From: a virus | Taxonomy: Duplodnaviria; Caudoviricetes | Length of the DNA: 64,000 nucleotides | Virus record (IMG/VR): IMGVR_UViG_3300029913_000001 | Strand: one strand, 5' to 3' | Shown: in pieces, positions 57,659 to 64,000 of the stretch | Position numbering within the stretch: the stretch's first letter is position 1 | Layout: every line of letters begins with the position of its first letter | Program-made: the position numbers and the translations under genes | The notes under the pieces: generated by a model | The model's input: the letters and a program-made list of their open reading frames with translations, nothing else | Told to the model about the DNA's origin: nothing | The model's database searches: none

Positions 57659-58273
57659 TTACTCCAAGCCCAAGGCAGTTAATATATCTTTTATACTATG
57701 ACCATGATGATTATAATCGAGCGCAACATAAGATCCGGAAATTAATATTTCACACCCCATTCTTATGGCATCCGCTAATCCGACACTATTTTTATATTTG
57801 TACTGTTCGGCAAAATTAAAAATTGGCTTGTTAATGTCAAACAACGAAACCTCATTGAATAAATCACGAACTTTCGGAGACCATGTATACGAAAACCCAT
57901 TAACAGGAAAAATTACAAAAGTATCACCATAGTTTTCTGCTGCAAAGAGATTACCCGTGCAAAAAATACTATTTGACCTCAACGCCTTAAATCCAGACGC
58001 CGCGAGGCTGCTATCCACTATTTTTTGAACCTCCATCGAAGTATCCATTGGCTTTCGATCGTCTCGGCTTTTACCCAATAAAATATATGATTTAGCGTCT
58101 CTTATGCCGCGAAATAGAAAGTCGCCATTTTTGCAATCGTTGTTATAAACTTTAATTATATCTGAACAATGCGTCTGCATAAAAGAAACTAATGCTTTCG
58201 CTCGAGTCGAAAGCATCCATTGTTCTTCGCCGTGTTTTAATTTTGTATGATCTAATACTTCAGATAAGCGCAT
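57659..58273 (-). CDS. tagged ART-like protein (subfamily 1, no repeats)
   Basis: start MRLSEV 5 nt after ATAAATA; FRG, RSNSIFCT, YG..FVIFP, EILISG. Confidence 0.58.
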   Translation of the reverse strand: MRLSEVLDHTKLKHGEEQWMLSTRAKALVSFMQTHCSDIIKVYNNDCKNGDFLFRGIRDAKSYILLGKSRDDRKPMDTSMEVQKIVDSSLAASGFKALRSNSIFCTGNLFAAENYGDTFVIFPVNGFSYTWSPKVRDLFNEVSLFDINKPIFNFAEQYKYKNSVGLADAIRMGCEILISGSYVALDYNHHGHSIKDILTALGLE

Positions 58274-58317
58274 GTTTGTATTTATGTGTACATATAAATA
58301 TAAGAGAGGATTTAATA

Positions 58318-59457
58318 ATGCCAAGAATTTCTTTATGGTCTAACGAAAAATACGGTCAAGACGCCATGTGGTTTGATAAGCATATATATGAGCAATTCAC
58401 GATGGGCGGGGTGGACTTATATGTCCATAAATATCTCGGCGCAGAAAATCCAAATACCACAAACGACGCTACCCAACCAAATTATCCAAATTTGTCGGCG
58501 CAGAATATACAAGATATTCTCTTACTTGAAAATAGGGATCGAAAATATTCGCAGGATATATATCGAGTTAGAGGTTACTATTCTCCGGCAGATTTGGATC
58601 TTGATCTAAGTCAATGGGGATTGATGATCTCGAGCGGAACATTATTCATAACCGTACACCTTAATAGTATGGTAGATACTATTGGTAGGAAACTAATGTC
58701 AGGGGATGTTCTAGAATTACCGAACTTGAAAGAATTTTATAGTTTGGACGAAACTGTGCCCGTTGCCCTAAAAAGATTTTATGTAATTCAGGAGGGAACT
58801 AGACCGGCAAATGGTTTTTCCCCCACCTGGTGGAATCACATTTGGCGATTGAAATGCACGCCAATGACAGATGCGCAAGAATATGCAGATATTTTGAATC
58901 AAGTCGTCGTTGGTGTTAATGGAAATCCGGTGTTAATAAATGGCAACACTACTACCTACGGAAATATCACAAGCTCGATTGGTCAATATCAGAGTATAGA
59001 TTCCGCAATTATTGAACAGGCCGAATATGAAGTACCGGAATCCGGCTATAATACAGATCCATTATGGGCTCCACTATTTGTTGGTGGGAAGCCTAAGAAT
59101 GGACCATTGCCGGCAAATGCTAGTCCTCAGCAAAAATTCAGTGGATATCTTGTGGGCAACGGGGAAGCTATTGACGGGTATTCAGTGACAACAGCTACCG
59201 AATTTCCAAATAATCCAATTATTGGACAATATATTTTAAGACAAGATTACTTTCCAGCAAGGCTTTATAGATGGTCTGGTATAAAATGGAAATATGTAAA
59301 TTCCAAAGTCAGAACCCCACTAACACCAGGAAAAGGTCAAACGCAGAGAGACCAATTCATTAACAATTCAAATACTATTGTTAATAGCTCCAATATTTCT
59401 ATGCCAGTATTACAAGATTTATCGACCCTGCTCCGACCAGATAAAGGTGGTAATTAA
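58318..59457 (+). CDS. 14: neck/head-closure protein (T4 gp14-like)
   Basis: start MPRISLW; LENRDRKY, GDVLELP, HIWR.KC. Confidence 0.75.
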   Translation: MPRISLWSNEKYGQDAMWFDKHIYEQFTMGGVDLYVHKYLGAENPNTTNDATQPNYPNLSAQNIQDILLLENRDRKYSQDIYRVRGYYSPADLDLDLSQWGLMISSGTLFITVHLNSMVDTIGRKLMSGDVLELPNLKEFYSLDETVPVALKRFYVIQEGTRPANGFSPTWWNHIWRLKCTPMTDAQEYADILNQVVVGVNGNPVLINGNTTTYGNITSSIGQYQSIDSAIIEQAEYEVPESGYNTDPLWAPLFVGGKPKNGPLPANASPQQKFSGYLVGNGEAIDGYSVTTATEFPNNPIIGQYILRQDYFPARLYRWSGIKWKYVNSKVRTPLTPGKGQTQRDQFINNSNTIVNSSNISMPVLQDLSTLLRPDKGGN

Positions 59458-60221
59458 TGAAATCTGCAGAATTTTTAATTGAGTTTAACGGAACGAAAAA
59501 AATAGCAAACACTAATAATCTACTCAAAATACTCGAGAATGATTGTTCAGAAGCGTTATCGGCGAGTAAACACGGAAACAAAATTTTTAAAGGCTTACGC
59601 AATTTAAATGGAAATTTTTTTCTAGCGGATCCGACTAAAAAAATAAGACATAGCCGTAATACTAATAACTATTATACTTTATTACTGGATAATTTGCCGA
59701 GTTGGGCAAATTATCCAAAAAGAAGTAATAGTTTAATTTGTACGAATTCTAAGTGGAAAGCAGATTTATACGGAGCAGGTTATGCGGTTATACCGGTTAA
59801 TGGTACCGAAATTGCCGTGTGCCCGGCTGATGATATATGGTTTAGTTTTAAAGCGAATAATATATATAGTTTAGGAAGTTTTAATAAACTATTTAATAAT
59901 CACCAAATATCGGAAAAAAATTACGTTGATTTTCTAAAATCTTGTTTGCGTGAAAAAAATTATTTATTAAGAGATTTTAATAGTTTTAATTTTCGCGAAC
60001 TCGCAATAGCCTTTAAAGATGCACAATCAATAAGTGACTTTGAAAATATTTTTAATAAAATATTTGACCCGACCACCAACGGATTTAAAAAATATAACCT
60101 CTCAAACATGAATATTGGCGATGAAAGTCGAGAAATTTGGACTTCAGGTAAATCGTATTTAATTAATACAGAGTCAATGTTCTATAAAACTAATCTAGAG
60201 ACCTATAATGGAGATTACTAA
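59457..60221 (+). CDS. tagged ART-like protein (subfamily 2)
   Basis: MKSAEFLIE; FKG, RSNSLICT, YG..YAVIP, REIWTSG. Confidence 0.52.
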   Translation: MKSAEFLIEFNGTKKIANTNNLLKILENDCSEALSASKHGNKIFKGLRNLNGNFFLADPTKKIRHSRNTNNYYTLLLDNLPSWANYPKRSNSLICTNSKWKADLYGAGYAVIPVNGTEIAVCPADDIWFSFKANNIYSLGSFNKLFNNHQISEKNYVDFLKSCLREKNYLLRDFNSFNFRELAIAFKDAQSISDFENIFNKIFDPTTNGFKKYNLSNMNIGDESREIWTSGKSYLINTESMFYKTNLETYNGDY

Positions 60222-60296
60222 ATTAACTAAATTAATAAAATTGGGAACAAAATATGTTGTCTATTTGTCAAAGTTTACGATTACGTTAGGTGTATT

Positions 60297-60713
60297 ATGA
60301 TTATTGGGGCTGGCGCACTGGTTTATGCTAAAGAAACACATCGAGCTCTTTTTTTACTTCGTAATAATACGAAAACAAGAGGAACCTGGGGAATACCGGG
60401 CGGAAAAATAGTTGAATCGGAATCTATTATTACAGGATTACATAGAGAATTATTCGAAGAATTAGGAGTTAATTTATCCTTTACTAAATATTATCCATTG
60501 GACGTATACACTTCGCCTGACGATAAATTTAAGTATTATTCTTTTTTGCTGCAAATAGAAAATGAATTCTTACCAATTCTTAACAATGAACATAGCGGAT
60601 ATTGCTGGACTAAACTAGATAAATTTCCAAAACCCTTACATCCCGGTCTTTTTTCAACCTTAAATATTTCTGTTATTCAAGAGAAAATTAAAATCATAGA
60701 AGAAACGCTATGA
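60297..60713 (+). CDS. Nudix hydrolase
   Basis: complete Nudix box G-KIVES-E-SIITGLH-RELFEELG. Confidence 0.92.
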   Translation: MIIGAGALVYAKETHRALFLLRNNTKTRGTWGIPGGKIVESESIITGLHRELFEELGVNLSFTKYYPLDVYTSPDDKFKYYSFLLQIENEFLPILNNEHSGYCWTKLDKFPKPLHPGLFSTLNISVIQEKIKIIEETL

Positions 60714-61112
60714 TTTTTTTCCTAAATATGATTTCAATATACCAGTAATTTTTGCCGGTGAATATACAACACATATCATTAAAATTGAAAAATAACACAG
60801 AGACATAATATTTGGTGGTATATTTTTAGTAACAACTATTAGATACACCAAAATAGCTAATGATGTCCAAATAATAGATAACGTGCCTAATCTCGCAGTA
60901 CTGCCTGAGCCATTCTCGGCGGATAATACCGACCGCATAAAGGGCTTATCCCAATTTGACATATTAGGATTATAAGTTTCCGCTCCGGTATCATCTTCTT
61001 CGGATAGTTCAACATTCTGCACATTTTGAACATTCTGTACATTTTGCGCATTTTGCACATTTAAAGTTGATGACGTTGCTATCGCTTGCTCAGGTAATAT
61101 CATATCTTTCAC
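60708..61112 (-). CDS. two-TM membrane protein with NVQ repeats
   Basis: two hydrophobic segments; GTG start. Confidence 0.65.
   Translation of the reverse strand: MKDMILPEQAIATSSTLNVQNAQNVQNVQNVQNVELSEEDDTGAETYNPNMSNWDKPFMRSVLSAENGSGSTARLGTLSIIWTSLAILVYLIVVTKNIPPNIMSLCYFSILMICVVYSPAKITGILKSYLGKKS
61012..61062. repeat. 9-bp tandem repeat (~5.5 copies) encoding (N-V/A-Q)n
   Basis: ACATT[CT]TG[CAT] units. Confidence 0.8.
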
Positions 61113-61123
61113 CCCAATAATAT

Positions 61124-61204
61124 TTATGCGATTATTATGATATTACCGAAGTCATTAATTAATCGCTGCTCGTTATATTCCAATAATAATTCAATTATTT
61201 TCAT
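61124..61204 (-). pseudogene. 26-codon truncated duplicate of the 63459 gene start
   Basis: MKIIELLLEYNEQRLINDFGN then IIIIA*. Confidence 0.75.
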
Positions 61205-61217
61205 ATTAGTATTTATA
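61141..61217 (-). repeat. left arm of 77-bp inverted repeat (partner 63446-63522)
   Basis: 76/77 identity, single synonymous mismatch. Confidence 0.92.
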
Positions 61218-61228
61218 TAAATAGCTAT

Positions 61229-61657
61229 ATGAAAATAGCCGAGATAAGTAGAACTTCGAACAATGTTATAGAACGAGAAATGATTGGCTCACAATTAAGA
61301 GATATATTAATGTCCGATCAATCATTGGCAAAAGAAATTAAATATTTGCCTATATCTCGGTTACGCGACGAAATTCATTTAACGTTATGGGCTGATAAAA
61401 AATTAATTGGCGATCTAGAATTGCAGCAAAATCCATATAAAGAGAATCAACTATGGTTAATGCACGTCGCGGTTAGACAGGGCTACGAAGGTAAGGGCTA
61501 TGCAAAAAAATTAATTATTTGGGCAGTTAATAAAGCGCAAAAGAATAACAAAGAATTAAAATTATCCTCGTATAGTGAAGACGGACGAAATAAATTAGTT
61601 CCGTTGATTAATCGATTGTCAAACAATAATAAAACAATTATTCCCGCAACGGAGTAG
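61229..61657 (+). CDS. tagged GNAT acetyltransferase
   Basis: MKIAEI tag; LMHVAV..YEGKGYAKKLI motif A; TATAAATA 61216-61223. Confidence 0.8.
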   Translation: MKIAEISRTSNNVIEREMIGSQLRDILMSDQSLAKEIKYLPISRLRDEIHLTLWADKKLIGDLELQQNPYKENQLWLMHVAVRQGYEGKGYAKKLIIWAVNKAQKNNKELKLSSYSEDGRNKLVPLINRLSNNNKTIIPATE

Positions 61658-61665
61658 GAGAATAT

Positions 61666-62403
61666 ATGCTAAACCGAAAATTAGGCCGTAAGGCAATTAT
61701 CAAAGACTCACGCACTCTTCGCCTCGCAAATTACCTAGTGGAAGCATTACCCCCACCACCTGTTAGTTGCGATTGGACAAACGGCGTAACAGAATGGGGA
61801 ATGATGGCCAACGATCGATTAGGTTGTTGTACAATTGCCGCTTGTGGGCACGGATTGCAAACATGGTCTGCTAATGCCGCAACTGAAATAACGGTAACGG
61901 ATGATGATGTGTTATCATATTATGAACAGTGGGATGGATATAATCCGCAAGATCCTTCATCTGATAATGGTGGTATTGAAATTAATGTACTTACTAACTG
62001 GCGAAATTCTGGGTTTGCTAATCATAAATTGATTGGTTTTATGTCAGCCAATGTTAAGAATCAGACCGAAATTAAGACCGCTATTTCTATGTTTGGTGGA
62101 GTTTATATTGGCGTAAGTTTACCTATGTCTGCTCAGTCTCAAATGGTATGGGATATTAGCACGGGTGACGCTGCTATTCCTGGAAGTTGGGGCGGCCATG
62201 CTGTTTTTGCAGTAGCGTATGATGATAAGACAGTAACTTGCATTACCTGGGGAATGCTGAAAAAAATGACCTGGGCGTTTTGGAATACCTATTGCGATGA
62301 GGCATATGCATTATTAGGCCAAGATTGGTTTAATACAACCGGAGTTGCACCCAGTGGGCTAAAATCTGATCAATTGCTTGCTGATTTAGCTCTAATAAGA
62401 TAA
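61666..62403 (+). CDS. papain-like (C1-type) cysteine peptidase
   Basis: DW..WGMMAND.LGCCT (Cys), GGHAV..V.YD (His), ITWG. Confidence 0.7.
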   Translation: MLNRKLGRKAIIKDSRTLRLANYLVEALPPPPVSCDWTNGVTEWGMMANDRLGCCTIAACGHGLQTWSANAATEITVTDDDVLSYYEQWDGYNPQDPSSDNGGIEINVLTNWRNSGFANHKLIGFMSANVKNQTEIKTAISMFGGVYIGVSLPMSAQSQMVWDISTGDAAIPGSWGGHAVFAVAYDDKTVTCITWGMLKKMTWAFWNTYCDEAYALLGQDWFNTTGVAPSGLKSDQLLADLALIR

Positions 62404-62491
62404 ACGGATAAATAAGTATGCTTATTAGTTAATAAGTTTATGAAGTAAATAATCTTCGTAGGTGAGTAAAACTCACGCAGGTAGAAATATC

Positions 62492-63367
62492 ATGGGCAGA
62501 CCAATCAAACGTCAAGAATTTTTAGGAACTCAAGGTGGAGTAAATGTTACCCATCAAATTCAAAGTCTTACCTGGGGTGCCGCTGATTCAGCCGCTGTTC
62601 CCGGGTATTTAGCAAAACAGAATAGCCCAAGTAGGTTTGTTGCGCATACTAATAACGGAAGAAGTTTAACAACGCTTAGTAATGGTGCGCCAACCAGCGC
62701 CGGTTTTTCGGCAGTTAAGGTATTTCCTGTTGGCTCAGATCCAATTATTTACGCATCTGCCACCGCTAATCTTAAAGTGGTTTCCGCTTCTATAGTTTCG
62801 GGTGGTAATTTATATTCTGTCGGTAATGTTTTGACTCTTTCAGGCGGAGTTTTTGGTAACGCGGCTACCATTACGGTTAATAGTGTTTTTGCAAATAATG
62901 CCGTTAATGCGTTTACACTTAATGCTGTTGCAAATGAAGGGTATAAAGCACTACCAGCCAATATTGCGGCAGTCGCAACAACAACTGCCGGAAACGGAGC
63001 GGGCGCAATTTTTAATGTTAATTTTGGTCTTGAGTCGGTTGCTGTTGTATCAGGCGGTAGTAACTATACTTCGGCTAACATTACATTCCCGCAGGCGACA
63101 ACCGCGCCCGTTACCACTAACTCAGTTATTGGTGGAGTTTTGCAGAACAACGTAGCCGTAACATCGGCAGGCGTAATTAATATTGGAAATCCAACGGTAG
63201 TTGTTGAAGGAACCTCGGGCAATGTCGAATATGTTAAGCAAATTCGCTCTGCTGAAAAACTTTTAACATTCAGCGGTAACGAATATTTTTGGCTTCCAAA
63301 AGGTGTTCAACCACCCGCTAATTGGGCAAATCTTTCGGTTAAATTTGCATACTTAGATACCCTGTAA
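62492..63367 (+). CDS. putative virion structural protein (beta-rich)
   Basis: MGRPIK start; G/N/V/T/A-rich GGxxY repeats. Confidence 0.65.
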   Translation: MGRPIKRQEFLGTQGGVNVTHQIQSLTWGAADSAAVPGYLAKQNSPSRFVAHTNNGRSLTTLSNGAPTSAGFSAVKVFPVGSDPIIYASATANLKVVSASIVSGGNLYSVGNVLTLSGGVFGNAATITVNSVFANNAVNAFTLNAVANEGYKALPANIAAVATTTAGNGAGAIFNVNFGLESVAVVSGGSNYTSANITFPQATTAPVTTNSVIGGVLQNNVAVTSAGVINIGNPTVVVEGTSGNVEYVKQIRSAEKLLTFSGNEYFWLPKGVQPPANWANLSVKFAYLDTL

Positions 63368-63401
63368 GAATTGGTATTTTAAATAATAATCGTCTAAAGC
63401 A

Positions 63402-63432
63402 TTTTCGAGTGGTATTTAATACCACTCGAAAA
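63402..63432. terminator. palindromic terminator
   Basis: TTTTCGAGTGGTATT-t-AATACCACTCGAAAA. Confidence 0.85.
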
Positions 63433-63445
63433 TCTATTTATATAT

Positions 63446-63522
63446 TATAAATACTAATATGAAAATAATTGAATTATTACTGGAATATAACGAGCAGCGA
63501 TTAATTAATGACTTCGGTAATA
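63446..63522 (+). repeat. right arm of 77-bp inverted repeat (late promoter plus first 21 codons)
   Basis: TATAAATACTAATATGAAAATAATTGAA...TTCGGTAATA. Confidence 0.92.
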
Positions 63523-64000
63523 AATTAATTACTCGAATTAAGTCAGATGCCTCCGCGCCAAAAACATCGGATATTAAAATAGCGATTGATAATATTGCAA
63601 ATTTAGATCCCACAGGAAATAAAGAACTCACCTTTTGGTTAGTTCTTAATTACGCAAATGGCCGAATAAGTAGATATGAAGATATTGCGAGCAGAGCCAT
63701 TCCGGCTTTAATAAAATTTAAAGCATTACTTAAAAAGCCAAATCTAGAACCAAAATTAACTATTCGAGACATAAATCAGATTAAAGGCCTAACTGGGATC
63801 AAATCAACTACCCCTGAAGTCCCTGATTCTCTAGGGCTAGAAGATATTATTGACCAATACCAAGAAAAAGATGTTACTTCTACTAGCGAATTATCATCAA
63901 GTGAAGAACAAAATTTTTATAAAACCGGACAAGCCAAATTAATTTATAATGATGCTCAGGTAAAAGTTGTTGTACCAAAGACGAAAGCGGCGAGTTGTTT
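63459..64000 (+). CDS. tagged hypothetical virion protein, truncated by window end
   Basis: open frame MKIIELLLEYNEQ...KVVVPKTKAASC; TATAAATA 5 nt upstream. Confidence 0.85.
   Translation, partial: MKIIELLLEYNEQRLINDFGNKLITRIKSDASAPKTSDIKIAIDNIANLDPTGNKELTFWLVLNYANGRISRYEDIASRAIPALIKFKALLKKPNLEPKLTIRDINQIKGLTGIKSTTPEVPDSLGLEDIIDQYQEKDVTSTSELSSSEEQNFYKTGQAKLIYNDAQVKVVVPKTKAASC

What the first reader, a model, noticed from the sequence alone, without database searches (positions are those of the whole stretch)
61124..63522. 77-bp inverted duplication of late promoter plus capsid tag: a cargo-recruiting cassette caught mid-copy?
Seen: 61141-61217 (minus) matches 63446-63522 (plus) at 76/77 nt, covering TATAAATA, the leaderless ATG and 21 codons (MKIIELLLEYNEQRLINDFGN). 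Similarity extends inward over an opposite-facing TAAATAG motif with a 5-nt indel. The left copy now gives a 26-aa stub, and its overlapping reverse promoter drives the tagged GNAT. The arms bracket about 2.2 kb (GNAT, cysteine peptidase, structural gene). Inference: scar of an inversion/insertion showing how promoter-tag units spread and convert new genes into packaged cargo; the segment may also invert by RecA.
Basis: partly seen in the sequence, partly recalled or inferred. Interest (0 to 1): 0.7.

Follow-up and report, generated by a model that had tools for sequence, protein, structure and literature searches.

The report
Inversion scar with duplicated late promoter
A giant T4-like phage from peat has flipped a 2.2-kb block of three genes, and in doing so left a second, inverted 77-base copy of a neighbouring gene's promoter and first 21 codons; it is a real rearrangement scar of a known kind, not a device for tagging new cargo proteins.

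Summary
Window 61141-61217 (minus) and 63446-63522 (plus) match at 76/77 nt, or 84 nt at 95% when extended. This is the only such pair in the 80-kb contig (E 3e-37). Six independent peat assemblies carry it unchanged, so it is not a chimera.

The 21 "tag" codons are the native N-terminus of a large DUF4116-repeat family, conserved in most of the 120 homologues whose N-termini I read (633 found). The right copy is therefore the original and the left copy a 26-codon stub.

Two verified related phage lineages, and one more judged by gene lengths only, have the order GNAT-peptidase-291aa-terminator-promoter-membrane gene, all co-oriented. In the window the GNAT-peptidase-291aa-terminator block is inverted relative to the membrane gene. 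Each repeat copy keeps one native flank.

I read this as a derived inversion with duplication of one breakpoint. This pattern is known from Drosophila inversions; I ran no literature search for phage cases. The stub is out of frame with the membrane gene. That gene keeps its own ribosome-binding site, start codon and a relic promoter box (CATAAATA).

The "cargo-recruiting cassette caught mid-copy" reading is not supported. The "inversion scar" reading is supported. Ongoing flipping could not be tested because no raw reads were available. Interest is modest.

The parts
60708..61103 (-). 131-aa membrane-protein gene (memb131). It has its own Shine-Dalgarno (GGGGTGA, 61117-61111 region) and ATG at 61103. 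In relatives it lies directly downstream of the 291-aa gene's terminator.
   Evidence: ORF. Homologues at 63% (L017) and 50% (L019) over the full length. No Pfam or PHROG family.
61121..61128 (-). Relic of memb131's own late-promoter box, CATAAATA, 17 nt before the ATG. The relatives have TATAAATA at 17-18 nt. The stub's stop codon TAA (61126-61124) lies inside it.
   Evidence: Read. Window minus strand GCATAAATATTATTGGGGTGAAAGATATG against L017 GTATAAATATTATGTGGAGAAAAATTATG.
61124..61204 (-). 26-codon stub ORF: 21 codons copied from the DUF4116-family gene plus IIIIA and a stop. It is out of frame with memb131.
61134..61217 (-). Left (derived) arm of the inverted duplication: leftward TATAAATA (61217-61210), spacer, ATG 61204, 21 codons. 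The outer edge of certain homology is at 61141.
61210..61223 (.). Palindromic back-to-back late promoters TATTTATATAAATA. The leftward box serves the stub, the rightward box (61216-61223) serves the GNAT. There are 24 nt between the two start codons, and both genes are leaderless.
   Evidence: The same architecture (TATTTATAAATA, 22 nt) lies between d127 and AdoMetDC in L017.
61229..61657 (+). GNAT acetyltransferase, first gene of the inverted block.
   Evidence: PF00583 E 2e-7. 67% identical to the L017 GNAT.
61666..62403 (+). 245-aa papain-like cysteine peptidase fold (phrog_19005).
   Evidence: Model and Foldseek hits to cathepsins L/K and xylellain. Invariant C55/H178.
62492..63367 (+). 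291-aa protein (possible start GTG at 62462). Only weak head-decoration and baseplate PHROG hits. Last gene of the inverted block.
   Evidence: 66-69% identical to homologues in L017 and L019.
63401..63433 (+). 15-bp-stem hairpin terminator with T-rich tail CTATTTATAT. In relatives the equivalent hairpin sits between the 291-aa gene and memb131's promoter.
63435..63442 (-). Orphan leftward TATAAATA box facing the terminator. No gene follows it.
   Evidence: minus-strand hit at 63442. Sequence.
63446..63529 (+). Right (original) arm: late promoter TATAAATA, CTAAT, ATG 63459 and the first 21-23 codons of the DUF4116-repeat gene.
63459..64000 (+). DUF4116-repeat family gene. It runs off the window and is 328 to more than 435 aa in different assemblies. 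Its N-terminus is conserved across the family. The homologue in phage PA5oct is annotated as a virion protein by mass spectrometry.

Best explanation
The two arms mark a derived 2.2-kb inversion in this lineage of an uncultured Rak2/PA5oct-like, T4-related giant phage.

The inferred ancestral order, in window orientation, was: NUDIX -> | <- memb131 <- own late promoter <- terminator <- 291aa <- peptidase <- GNAT <- [back-to-back late promoters] -> DUF4116-family gene -> 2H-phosphoesterase.

One breakpoint fell between the terminator and memb131's promoter. The other was staggered across the bidirectional promoter and codon 21-23 of the DUF4116-family gene. That roughly 77-90-nt piece therefore ended up on both sides of the flipped block, in opposite orientation. 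This is a breakpoint duplication, as in the staggered-break or sister-copy model of Ranz et al. 2007.

Shown:
- the repeat itself;
- its presence in six assemblies;
- the inverted order relative to two relative lineages;
- one native flank on each copy (left copy joined to the GNAT, right copy joined to the rest of the DUF4116 gene) and one novel junction on each copy;
- the relic memb131 promoter box.

Inferred:
- Inversion and duplication were a single event.
- Today the left arm fires leftward as a consensus T4-type late promoter. It would give a leaderless mRNA that encodes the 26-aa stub and then memb131 from its own ribosome-binding site.
- This new promoter replaces or reinforces the old box, whose first T is now C.
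- Because every gene keeps a promoter, the rearrangement was expression-neutral enough to persist.
For: The repeat is real and unique and is identical in L001-L005, with the left arm also in L023.

The 21 codons are the conserved native N-terminus in most of the 120 homologues whose N-termini I read (633 found), so the right copy is the source.

Syntenic relatives: the L017/L018/L020/L024-26 lineage, seen in at least five samples, has d127 <- P|P -> AdoMetDC-GNAT-DUF3326-peptidase-293aa-hairpin-TATAAATA-memb131 -> | <- NUDIX-p254-struct379. The L019/L027 lineage has 294aa-hairpin-TATAAATA-memb -> | <- NUDIX. A fourth lineage shows 293(+), 127(+), 135(-) by gene lengths only.

memb131's box-to-ATG spacing of 17 nt is conserved between the window and L017.

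ATAAATA-N5-ATG occurs 6 times in the window against 0.88 expected, and none of 100 shuffles reached 6.

T4-type core genes lie around the locus: gp13, gp15, sheath and a T4-type terminase.

Inverted duplications at inversion breakpoints, including duplication at only one breakpoint and copies as short as 46 bp, are documented in PMC1885836.
Against: The three lineages are about equidistant and mosaic, so polarity rests on the internal scars (stub, orphan box, relic box) rather than on a rooted tree.

No relative has the DUF4116-family gene at this locus. In L012 it sits after gp15. The immediate pre-inversion state is therefore reconstructed, not observed.

The 5-nt indel between the boxes, and the variant strain L021/L022 that diverges right after TATA at 63449, leave the inner edge of the duplicated unit uncertain.

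Promoter activity of either arm is not shown. The RNA contigs are unstranded and do not cover the arms. In variant L021 the leftward box reads GCTAAATA, which argues against strong selection on the left promoter.
Confidence: 0.7

Rival explanations
1. Two steps and still active. A 77-nt fragment of the DUF4116 gene's promoter and 5' end was first inserted, inverted, upstream of memb131. Homologous recombination between the two copies (phage UvsX-type or host RecA) then flipped the block, and it keeps flipping, so both orientations coexist.
For: Exact stretches of 34 and 42 nt in inverted orientation. T4-type recombination needs less than 50 bp of homology, as stated in PMC2839356. Both orientations would leave every gene with a promoter, because the promoters lie inside the arms. 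DUF4116 paralogue 5' ends appear to recombine in a relative.
Against: Consensus assemblies from five samples span both arms (L001-L005, three of them k141 contigs), all in one orientation and with the same arm-specific C/T difference. It needs an extra, unexplained insertion step. No joints were seen, but Logan k=31 contigs cannot see orientation, so this is not a real test.
Confidence: 0.2
2. The left arm is what remains of a second, leftward-pointing DUF4116-family paralogue that was almost wholly deleted. It is not a by-product of the inversion.
For: Relatives carry two paralogues of this family per genome (L012 at 10001 and 19260). Deletions between or within them seem to occur.
Against: Paralogues in the relative are only about 83-89% identical at DNA level, whereas the arms are 76/77 and homology stops abruptly at codon 21-23. 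This reading does not explain why the block between the arms is inverted relative to two other lineages, or why each arm has exactly one native flank.
Confidence: 0.07
3. One reading: a portable promoter-plus-capsid-tag cassette caught while being copied onto a new gene, to convert that gene into packaged cargo.
For: Many late genes here start M-[KR]-h-x-E-h-h like the T4 capsid-targeting leader. The PA5oct homologue of the right-hand gene is annotated as a virion protein by mass spectrometry. A 22-nt promoter-plus-start patch is shared between the GNAT and the DUF4116 gene at 86% (family D6).
Against: The stub ends in a stop after 26 codons and is out of frame with memb131 (101 nt between starts). 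memb131 keeps its own ribosome-binding site, start and relic promoter, and is a two-helix membrane protein with untagged homologues. The 21 codons are the native N-terminus of one family, not a module found on unrelated proteins. There is no third copy in the 80 kb.
Confidence: 0.04
4. An assembly or amplification chimera.
For: The locus lies about 1.1 kb from a contig end, and assemblies break in the nearby DUF4116 repeats.
Against: Six assemblies from different samples and two pipelines (JGI; ENA k141) carry it with identical junctions. The arms differ by one base, and Logan contigs from other runs break exactly where a true repeat predicts.
Confidence: 0.01

Closest known systems
Inversions flanked by inverted duplications of breakpoint sequence (staggered-break or sister-chromatid model; Ranz et al. 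2007, PLoS Biol 5:e152, PMC1885836)
   Same: A segment is inverted relative to the outgroup order. A short, ancestrally single-copy, non-repetitive sequence (here part of a gene and its promoter) is present at both ends in inverted orientation. Only one of the two breakpoints is duplicated, which that paper also reports. One copy is a decaying, non-functional gene fragment.
   Different: This is a phage genome of a few hundred kb, not a eukaryotic chromosome. The duplicate is only 77-90 nt and includes an entire minimal promoter, so it may have been co-opted at once. In a T4-like phage the molecular route is more likely recombination-dependent replication or illegitimate exchange between genome copies than end joining. 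This last point is an inference.
PeSL mobile regulatory cassettes of T4-type phages (Arbiol et al. 2010, PMC2839356; Comeau et al. 2014, PMC4122927)
   Same: Conserved promoter-containing patches at the starts of accessory genes act as recombination sites that shuffle gene cassettes while preserving their expression. A strain variant here differs by an insertion or replacement exactly at the promoter box.
   Different: PeSLs are early promoters plus stem-loops, occur in many direct copies per genome, and give deletions, insertions and mini-circles. Here there are a late promoter plus coding leader, two copies only, inverted, and the outcome is an inversion.
[quoted passage not shown] 1994)
   Same: A short N-terminal leader of similar character (the M-K-x-x-E-h-h...h-x-E pattern is recalled from my own knowledge of T4 MKTYQEFIAE). 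It sits on late-expressed accessory proteins. A homologue of the right-hand gene is annotated as found in PA5oct virions.
   Different: Cleavage and targeting are untested here. The duplicated leader is not attached to any cargo in its new position.
Site-specific invertible segments of phages (Mu Gin/G, P1 Cin/C)
   Same: A segment of a few kb is bracketed by short inverted repeats in a myovirus genome.
   Different: No invertase gene lies within about 5 kb. No alternative coding ends are switched. The promoters lie inside the repeats, so orientation would not change expression. The repeat is a gene fragment, not a recombinase site.

Membership tests
Inversion with breakpoint inverted duplication (Ranz et al. 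2007 type) | The segment between the repeats is inverted relative to the order in related genomes | tested here: met
   L017-type and L019-type relatives have 291aa-terminator-promoter-memb131 co-oriented. In the window the block is flipped.
Inversion with breakpoint inverted duplication (Ranz et al. 2007 type) | The repeats are inverted copies of non-repetitive, gene-derived sequence located at the two breakpoints | tested here: met
   The arms lie at 61134-61217 and 63446-63529 and are the 5' end of the DUF4116-family gene. There are only two copies in 80 kb.
Inversion with breakpoint inverted duplication (Ranz et al. 2007 type) | Each copy keeps one ancestral flank and has one novel junction | tested here: met
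   The left arm is contiguous with the GNAT promoter and gene, as is the P|P in L017. The right arm is contiguous with the rest of the DUF4116 gene. The novel junctions are stub/relic memb131 box and terminator/right arm.
Inversion with breakpoint inverted duplication (Ranz et al. 2007 type) | Duplication and inversion arose in one event | not testable with these tools
   No intermediate genomes were found. A two-step route gives the same end state.
PeSL-type mobile regulatory cassette | Composite early promoter plus stem-loop motif of about 100 bp present in many copies in hyperplastic regions | tested here: not met
   Here it is a late-type TATAAATA with a coding leader, present in two copies only.
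PeSL-type mobile regulatory cassette | Recombination at the motif inserts or deletes flanked ORFs between close strains | tested here: inconclusive
   Variant contigs L021/L022 diverge after TATA of the right-arm box into other sequence, but the full variant structure could not be recovered.
T4-type capsid-targeting leader cassette | The same leader is fused in frame to unrelated cargo proteins | tested here: not met
   The copied leader ends in a stop after 26 codons and is out of frame with memb131. The leader is family-specific.
T4-type capsid-targeting leader cassette | The leader-bearing protein is found in virions and the leader is removed by the prohead protease | tested here: inconclusive
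   The PA5oct homologue EST35_0205 is annotated 'structural protein, ESI-MS/MS'. Cleavage after LLE (residues 7-9) is only a motif reading.
Site-specific invertible segment (Gin/Cin type) | An adjacent invertase gene, and alternative gene ends switched by orientation | tested here: not met
   No recombinase domain was found in the ORFs from 57.6 kb to the 277-aa gene downstream. Expression logic is orientation-independent.

The most novel reading that the evidence does not exclude
Late-promoter-plus-leader starts (TATAAATA-N5-ATGAAAAT..., 20-80 nt) may be the late-gene counterpart of PeSL cassettes. They would be recombinogenic patches that drive insertion, deletion and inversion of cargo genes in giant T4-like phages. 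On this reading the 77-nt arms here are still active, so the 2.2-kb block flips at low frequency within the population.
Probability: 0.15. Interest if true: 0.55.

Novelty: new member of a known kind. Interest (0 to 1): 0.33.

Why it matters
This is a cleanly resolved rearrangement in the accessory (cargo) region of an uncultured giant phage. The ancestral order, both novel junctions, the duplicated piece and a decaying older promoter can all be read. It shows that in these genomes a complete promoter is so small (8 nt plus 5 nt before a leaderless ATG) that a breakpoint duplication of under 100 nt carries a working transcription unit with it. That makes inversions cheap. It also corrects an attractive but unsupported reading, namely tag transfer to new cargo. 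It does not reveal a new system or answer a standing question.

Tried and rejected
Megablast of 58000-64000 against cultured phages found nothing.

A degenerate DNA pattern for the first 13 leader codons found nothing in IMG/VR. Own-genome records may be hidden there, so this says little.

The peptidase homologues L007-L011 share no neighbouring genes with the window, so they were useless for synteny.

Read laying had only Logan contigs to work with. It found no joints. However, k=31 contigs cannot distinguish orientation, because the exact arm pieces (34 and 42 nt) exceed k. This is no evidence for or against flipping.

RNA-library contigs (X15) cover parts of memb131, the peptidase and the 291-aa gene but not the arms. 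They are unstranded and may include DNA, so they are not used as evidence of transcription.

A PDB sequence search gave only a spurious RACK1 hit for the peptidase and nothing for the 291-aa protein.

The 30-nt variant-specific sequence after 63449 was not found in IMG/VR, in the contig or in other loci, so the variant's structure stays unresolved.

The contig of the fourth lineage (P0130) could not be fetched as DNA.

A look-up of the arm among earlier scan findings gave nothing.

I considered and rejected a site-specific invertase switch, a long-range RNA structure between the arms, and an assembly chimera.
Full report
THE OBSERVATION

The inverted repeat is real. The repeat finder reports arms 61134-61217 and 63446-63529 (84 nt, 95% complementary, 2228 nt apart). 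blastn-short gives the 77-nt core at 76/77 with E 3.3e-37, and finds no further copy in the 80,396-bp contig that holds the window.

Each arm carries TATAAATA, a 5-nt spacer, ATG and 21 codons, MKIIELLLEYNEQRLINDFGN. The only difference is a synonymous Leu8 change.

The left copy reads on for five more codons to a stop, giving the 26-aa ORF 61204-61124. The right copy heads a long gene that runs off the window.

Five independent assemblies from different samples and two pipelines (L001-L005) contain both arms, with the same junctions and the same arm-specific base. A sixth (L023) contains the left arm. An assembly chimera is excluded.

THE GENOME

The neighbours are T4-type structural genes: gp13, the gp15 tail-sheath stabiliser, the sheath and a T4-type terminase. 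The nearest cultured relatives of a virion protein next to the locus are giant myoviruses: PA5oct, Atu_ph07, SCTP-2 and Rak2-like phages. Earlier notes of this scan call it a T4-related jumbo phage from peat, and the sequencing runs that hold it are peat metagenomes.

ATAAATA-N5-ATG occurs six times in the window against 0.88 expected, and none of 100 shuffles reached six. This fits T4-type late promoters placed so that transcription starts at the A of the ATG. The position of the T4 late box at -13 to -6 is from my own knowledge.

WHICH COPY IS THE ORIGINAL

A protein search with the full right-hand gene (328 aa in L001) found 633 homologues. Most of the 120 N-termini I read have the form M-[KR]-x-x-E-L-L-x-E-Y-N-E-x-R-L-[IL]-N-D-F-G-x-K-L. 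The 21 codons are therefore the native N-terminus of this DUF4116-repeat family. They are not a free tag, and the right copy is the source.

The PA5oct homologue (EST35_0205, 32% identity over residues 1-236) is annotated "structural protein, ESI-MS/MS" and starts MKLFEVF. The idea that the right-hand gene encodes a virion protein with a T4-like leader is thus reasonable, but it is not tested here.

THE KEY RESULT: SYNTENY

A related phage was recovered from at least five samples (L017, L018, L020, L024-L026; 52-80% protein identity to the window's genes). Its order is:

d127 <- [TATTTATAAATA] -> AdoMetDC - GNAT - DUF3326 - peptidase - 293aa - hairpin - TATAAATA - SD - memb131 -> | <- NUDIX - p254 - struct379

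A second lineage (L019/L027) has 294aa - hairpin - TATAAATA - SD - memb -> | <- NUDIX. A fourth lineage, known only from gene calls, shows 293(+), 127(+), 135(-).

In the window the order is:

NUDIX -> | <- memb131, then the left arm, then GNAT -> peptidase -> 291aa -> hairpin, then the right arm -> DUF4116 gene -> d127

The block between the arms is therefore inverted relative to memb131, and flipping it restores the relatives' order.

BREAKPOINTS AND SCARS

On the minus strand, just past the stub, the window reads GCATAAATATTATTGGGGTGAAAGATATG. L017 reads GTATAAATATTATGTGGAGAAAAATTATG. memb131's own late-promoter box is thus still in place, 17 nt before the ATG as in L017. Its first T is now C, and the stub's stop codon lies inside it.

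The terminator that precedes this box in the relatives now sits at 63401-63433, abutting the right arm.

The left arm is contiguous with the GNAT promoter in a palindromic back-to-back arrangement, TATTTATATAAATA, with 24 nt between the two start codons. This mirrors the 22-nt bidirectional promoter of L017.

The right arm is contiguous with the rest of its gene. It is preceded by an orphan leftward box that faces the terminator.

Each arm therefore has one native flank and one novel junction. This is the signature of an inversion in which one breakpoint was duplicated. Ranz et al. 2007 describe it for Drosophila, including duplication at only one breakpoint and duplicates as short as 46 bp.

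The three lineages are roughly equidistant and mosaic, so polarity rests on these scars rather than on a tree.

WHAT THE LEFT COPY DOES NOW (INFERENCE)

It places a consensus late promoter 101 nt upstream of memb131's ATG. The leaderless transcript would encode the 26-aa stub and then memb131 from its own Shine-Dalgarno.

The stub and memb131 are out of frame. memb131 aligns over its whole length with the relatives' proteins. No tag has been transferred.

The old box may be decaying because the new promoter relieves it, but CATAAATA may still work.

One divergent contig (L021) has GCTAAATA in place of the leftward box. This cautions against assuming selection on the left promoter.

Many late genes here and in relatives start M-[KR]-h-x-E-h-h: GNAT, AdoMetDC, d127, p254. 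The GNAT and DUF4116 starts share 22 nt at 86%.

Such patches could favour exchanges at gene starts, somewhat like the PeSL cassettes of T4-type phages. Three observations point that way:
- The freshwater variant contigs L021/L022 diverge from the window immediately after TATA of the right-arm box, into an 18-codon ORF and a new ATAAATA-N5-ATG gene.
- L023 has lost 14 nt, including the GNAT start, between two AAATAG repeats.
- In the relative, contigs exist with and without a 9.25-kb stretch lying between two direct DUF4116 paralogues. This may be an assembly path rather than a real genome.

These are hints, not proof.

ONGOING FLIPPING

This could not be tested. Only Logan contigs were available, and k=31 contigs are blind to orientation because the exact arm pieces are 34 and 42 nt. 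All longer consensus assemblies show one orientation.

No invertase gene is nearby. Since the promoters lie inside the arms, orientation would not change expression, so a regulatory switch is unlikely.

THE GENES IN THE BLOCK

The GNAT is confirmed by Pfam. The 245-aa protein gives a moderate model (pLDDT 68) that matches papain-family peptidases at TM about 0.5, with invariant Cys55 and His178. The 291-aa protein remains unassigned.

VERDICT

The inversion-scar reading is supported. The cargo-recruiting reading is not supported. This is a new example of a known kind of rearrangement, of modest interest.

Noticed in passing
window 61204-61231; L017 703-730: Minimal bidirectional late promoters. 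Two overlapping TATAAATA boxes form a palindrome (TATTTATATAAATA, or TATTTATAAATA in L017), with 5-nt spacers to leaderless start codons on both strands. Only 22-24 nt separate the two genes.
   Followed up: partly
L021 2233-2332 and L022 2165-2264 (equivalent to window 63449 onward): Freshwater variant contigs, about 2% divergent, share the terminator and CTATTTATATATTATA but then continue into an 18-codon ORF and GATAAATA-AAAAT-ATG (MQKTLKLN...) instead of the right arm. In the same run another contig brings 255 nt of unknown sequence up to 63445. The L021 head has TATTTAGCATAAATA instead of the palindromic promoter.
   Followed up: partly
L023 1060-1075 (equivalent to window 61225-61238): One peat assembly has a 14-nt deletion (CTATATGAAAATAG) between two AAATAG repeats. 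It removes the GNAT start codon, so the gene is called from Met17 (125 aa).
   Followed up: partly
L012 10001-11143 and 19260-20235; L017 19463-20438: The relative carries two direct DUF4116-family paralogues 9.25 kb apart (83-89% DNA identity), flanking genes that include the terminase. The second is split into 184-aa and 155-aa frames. L017-type contigs join the 5' part of the first to the second and lack the 9.25 kb. This is either a real deletion variant or an assembly path through the repeat.
   Followed up: partly
window 63459-64000 and L001-L006: The DUF4116 repeat number varies between assemblies (328 aa complete in L001; 365 to more than 435 aa, open-ended, elsewhere; 416 aa for P0001). 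Many contigs, including the 80-kb one, end inside the NPSEAIQLVAVKQDG repeats.
   Followed up: no
In the window's lineage it starts with GTG behind a GAGG Shine-Dalgarno, as if the DUF4116 gene had been inserted between promoter and gene.
   Followed up: no
L001 13846-14676: A DUF7487 / homing-endonuclease-like gene lies about 2 kb right of the right arm, and its homologue is next to d127 in L020/L025. It is a possible source of double-strand breaks near the rearranged region.
   Followed up: no
window 60950-61080 (-): The N-terminal third of the membrane protein is a low-complexity NVQ repeat (NVQNAQNVQNVQNVQNV) that differs strongly between lineages. The two-helix C-terminal part is conserved.
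   Followed up: no
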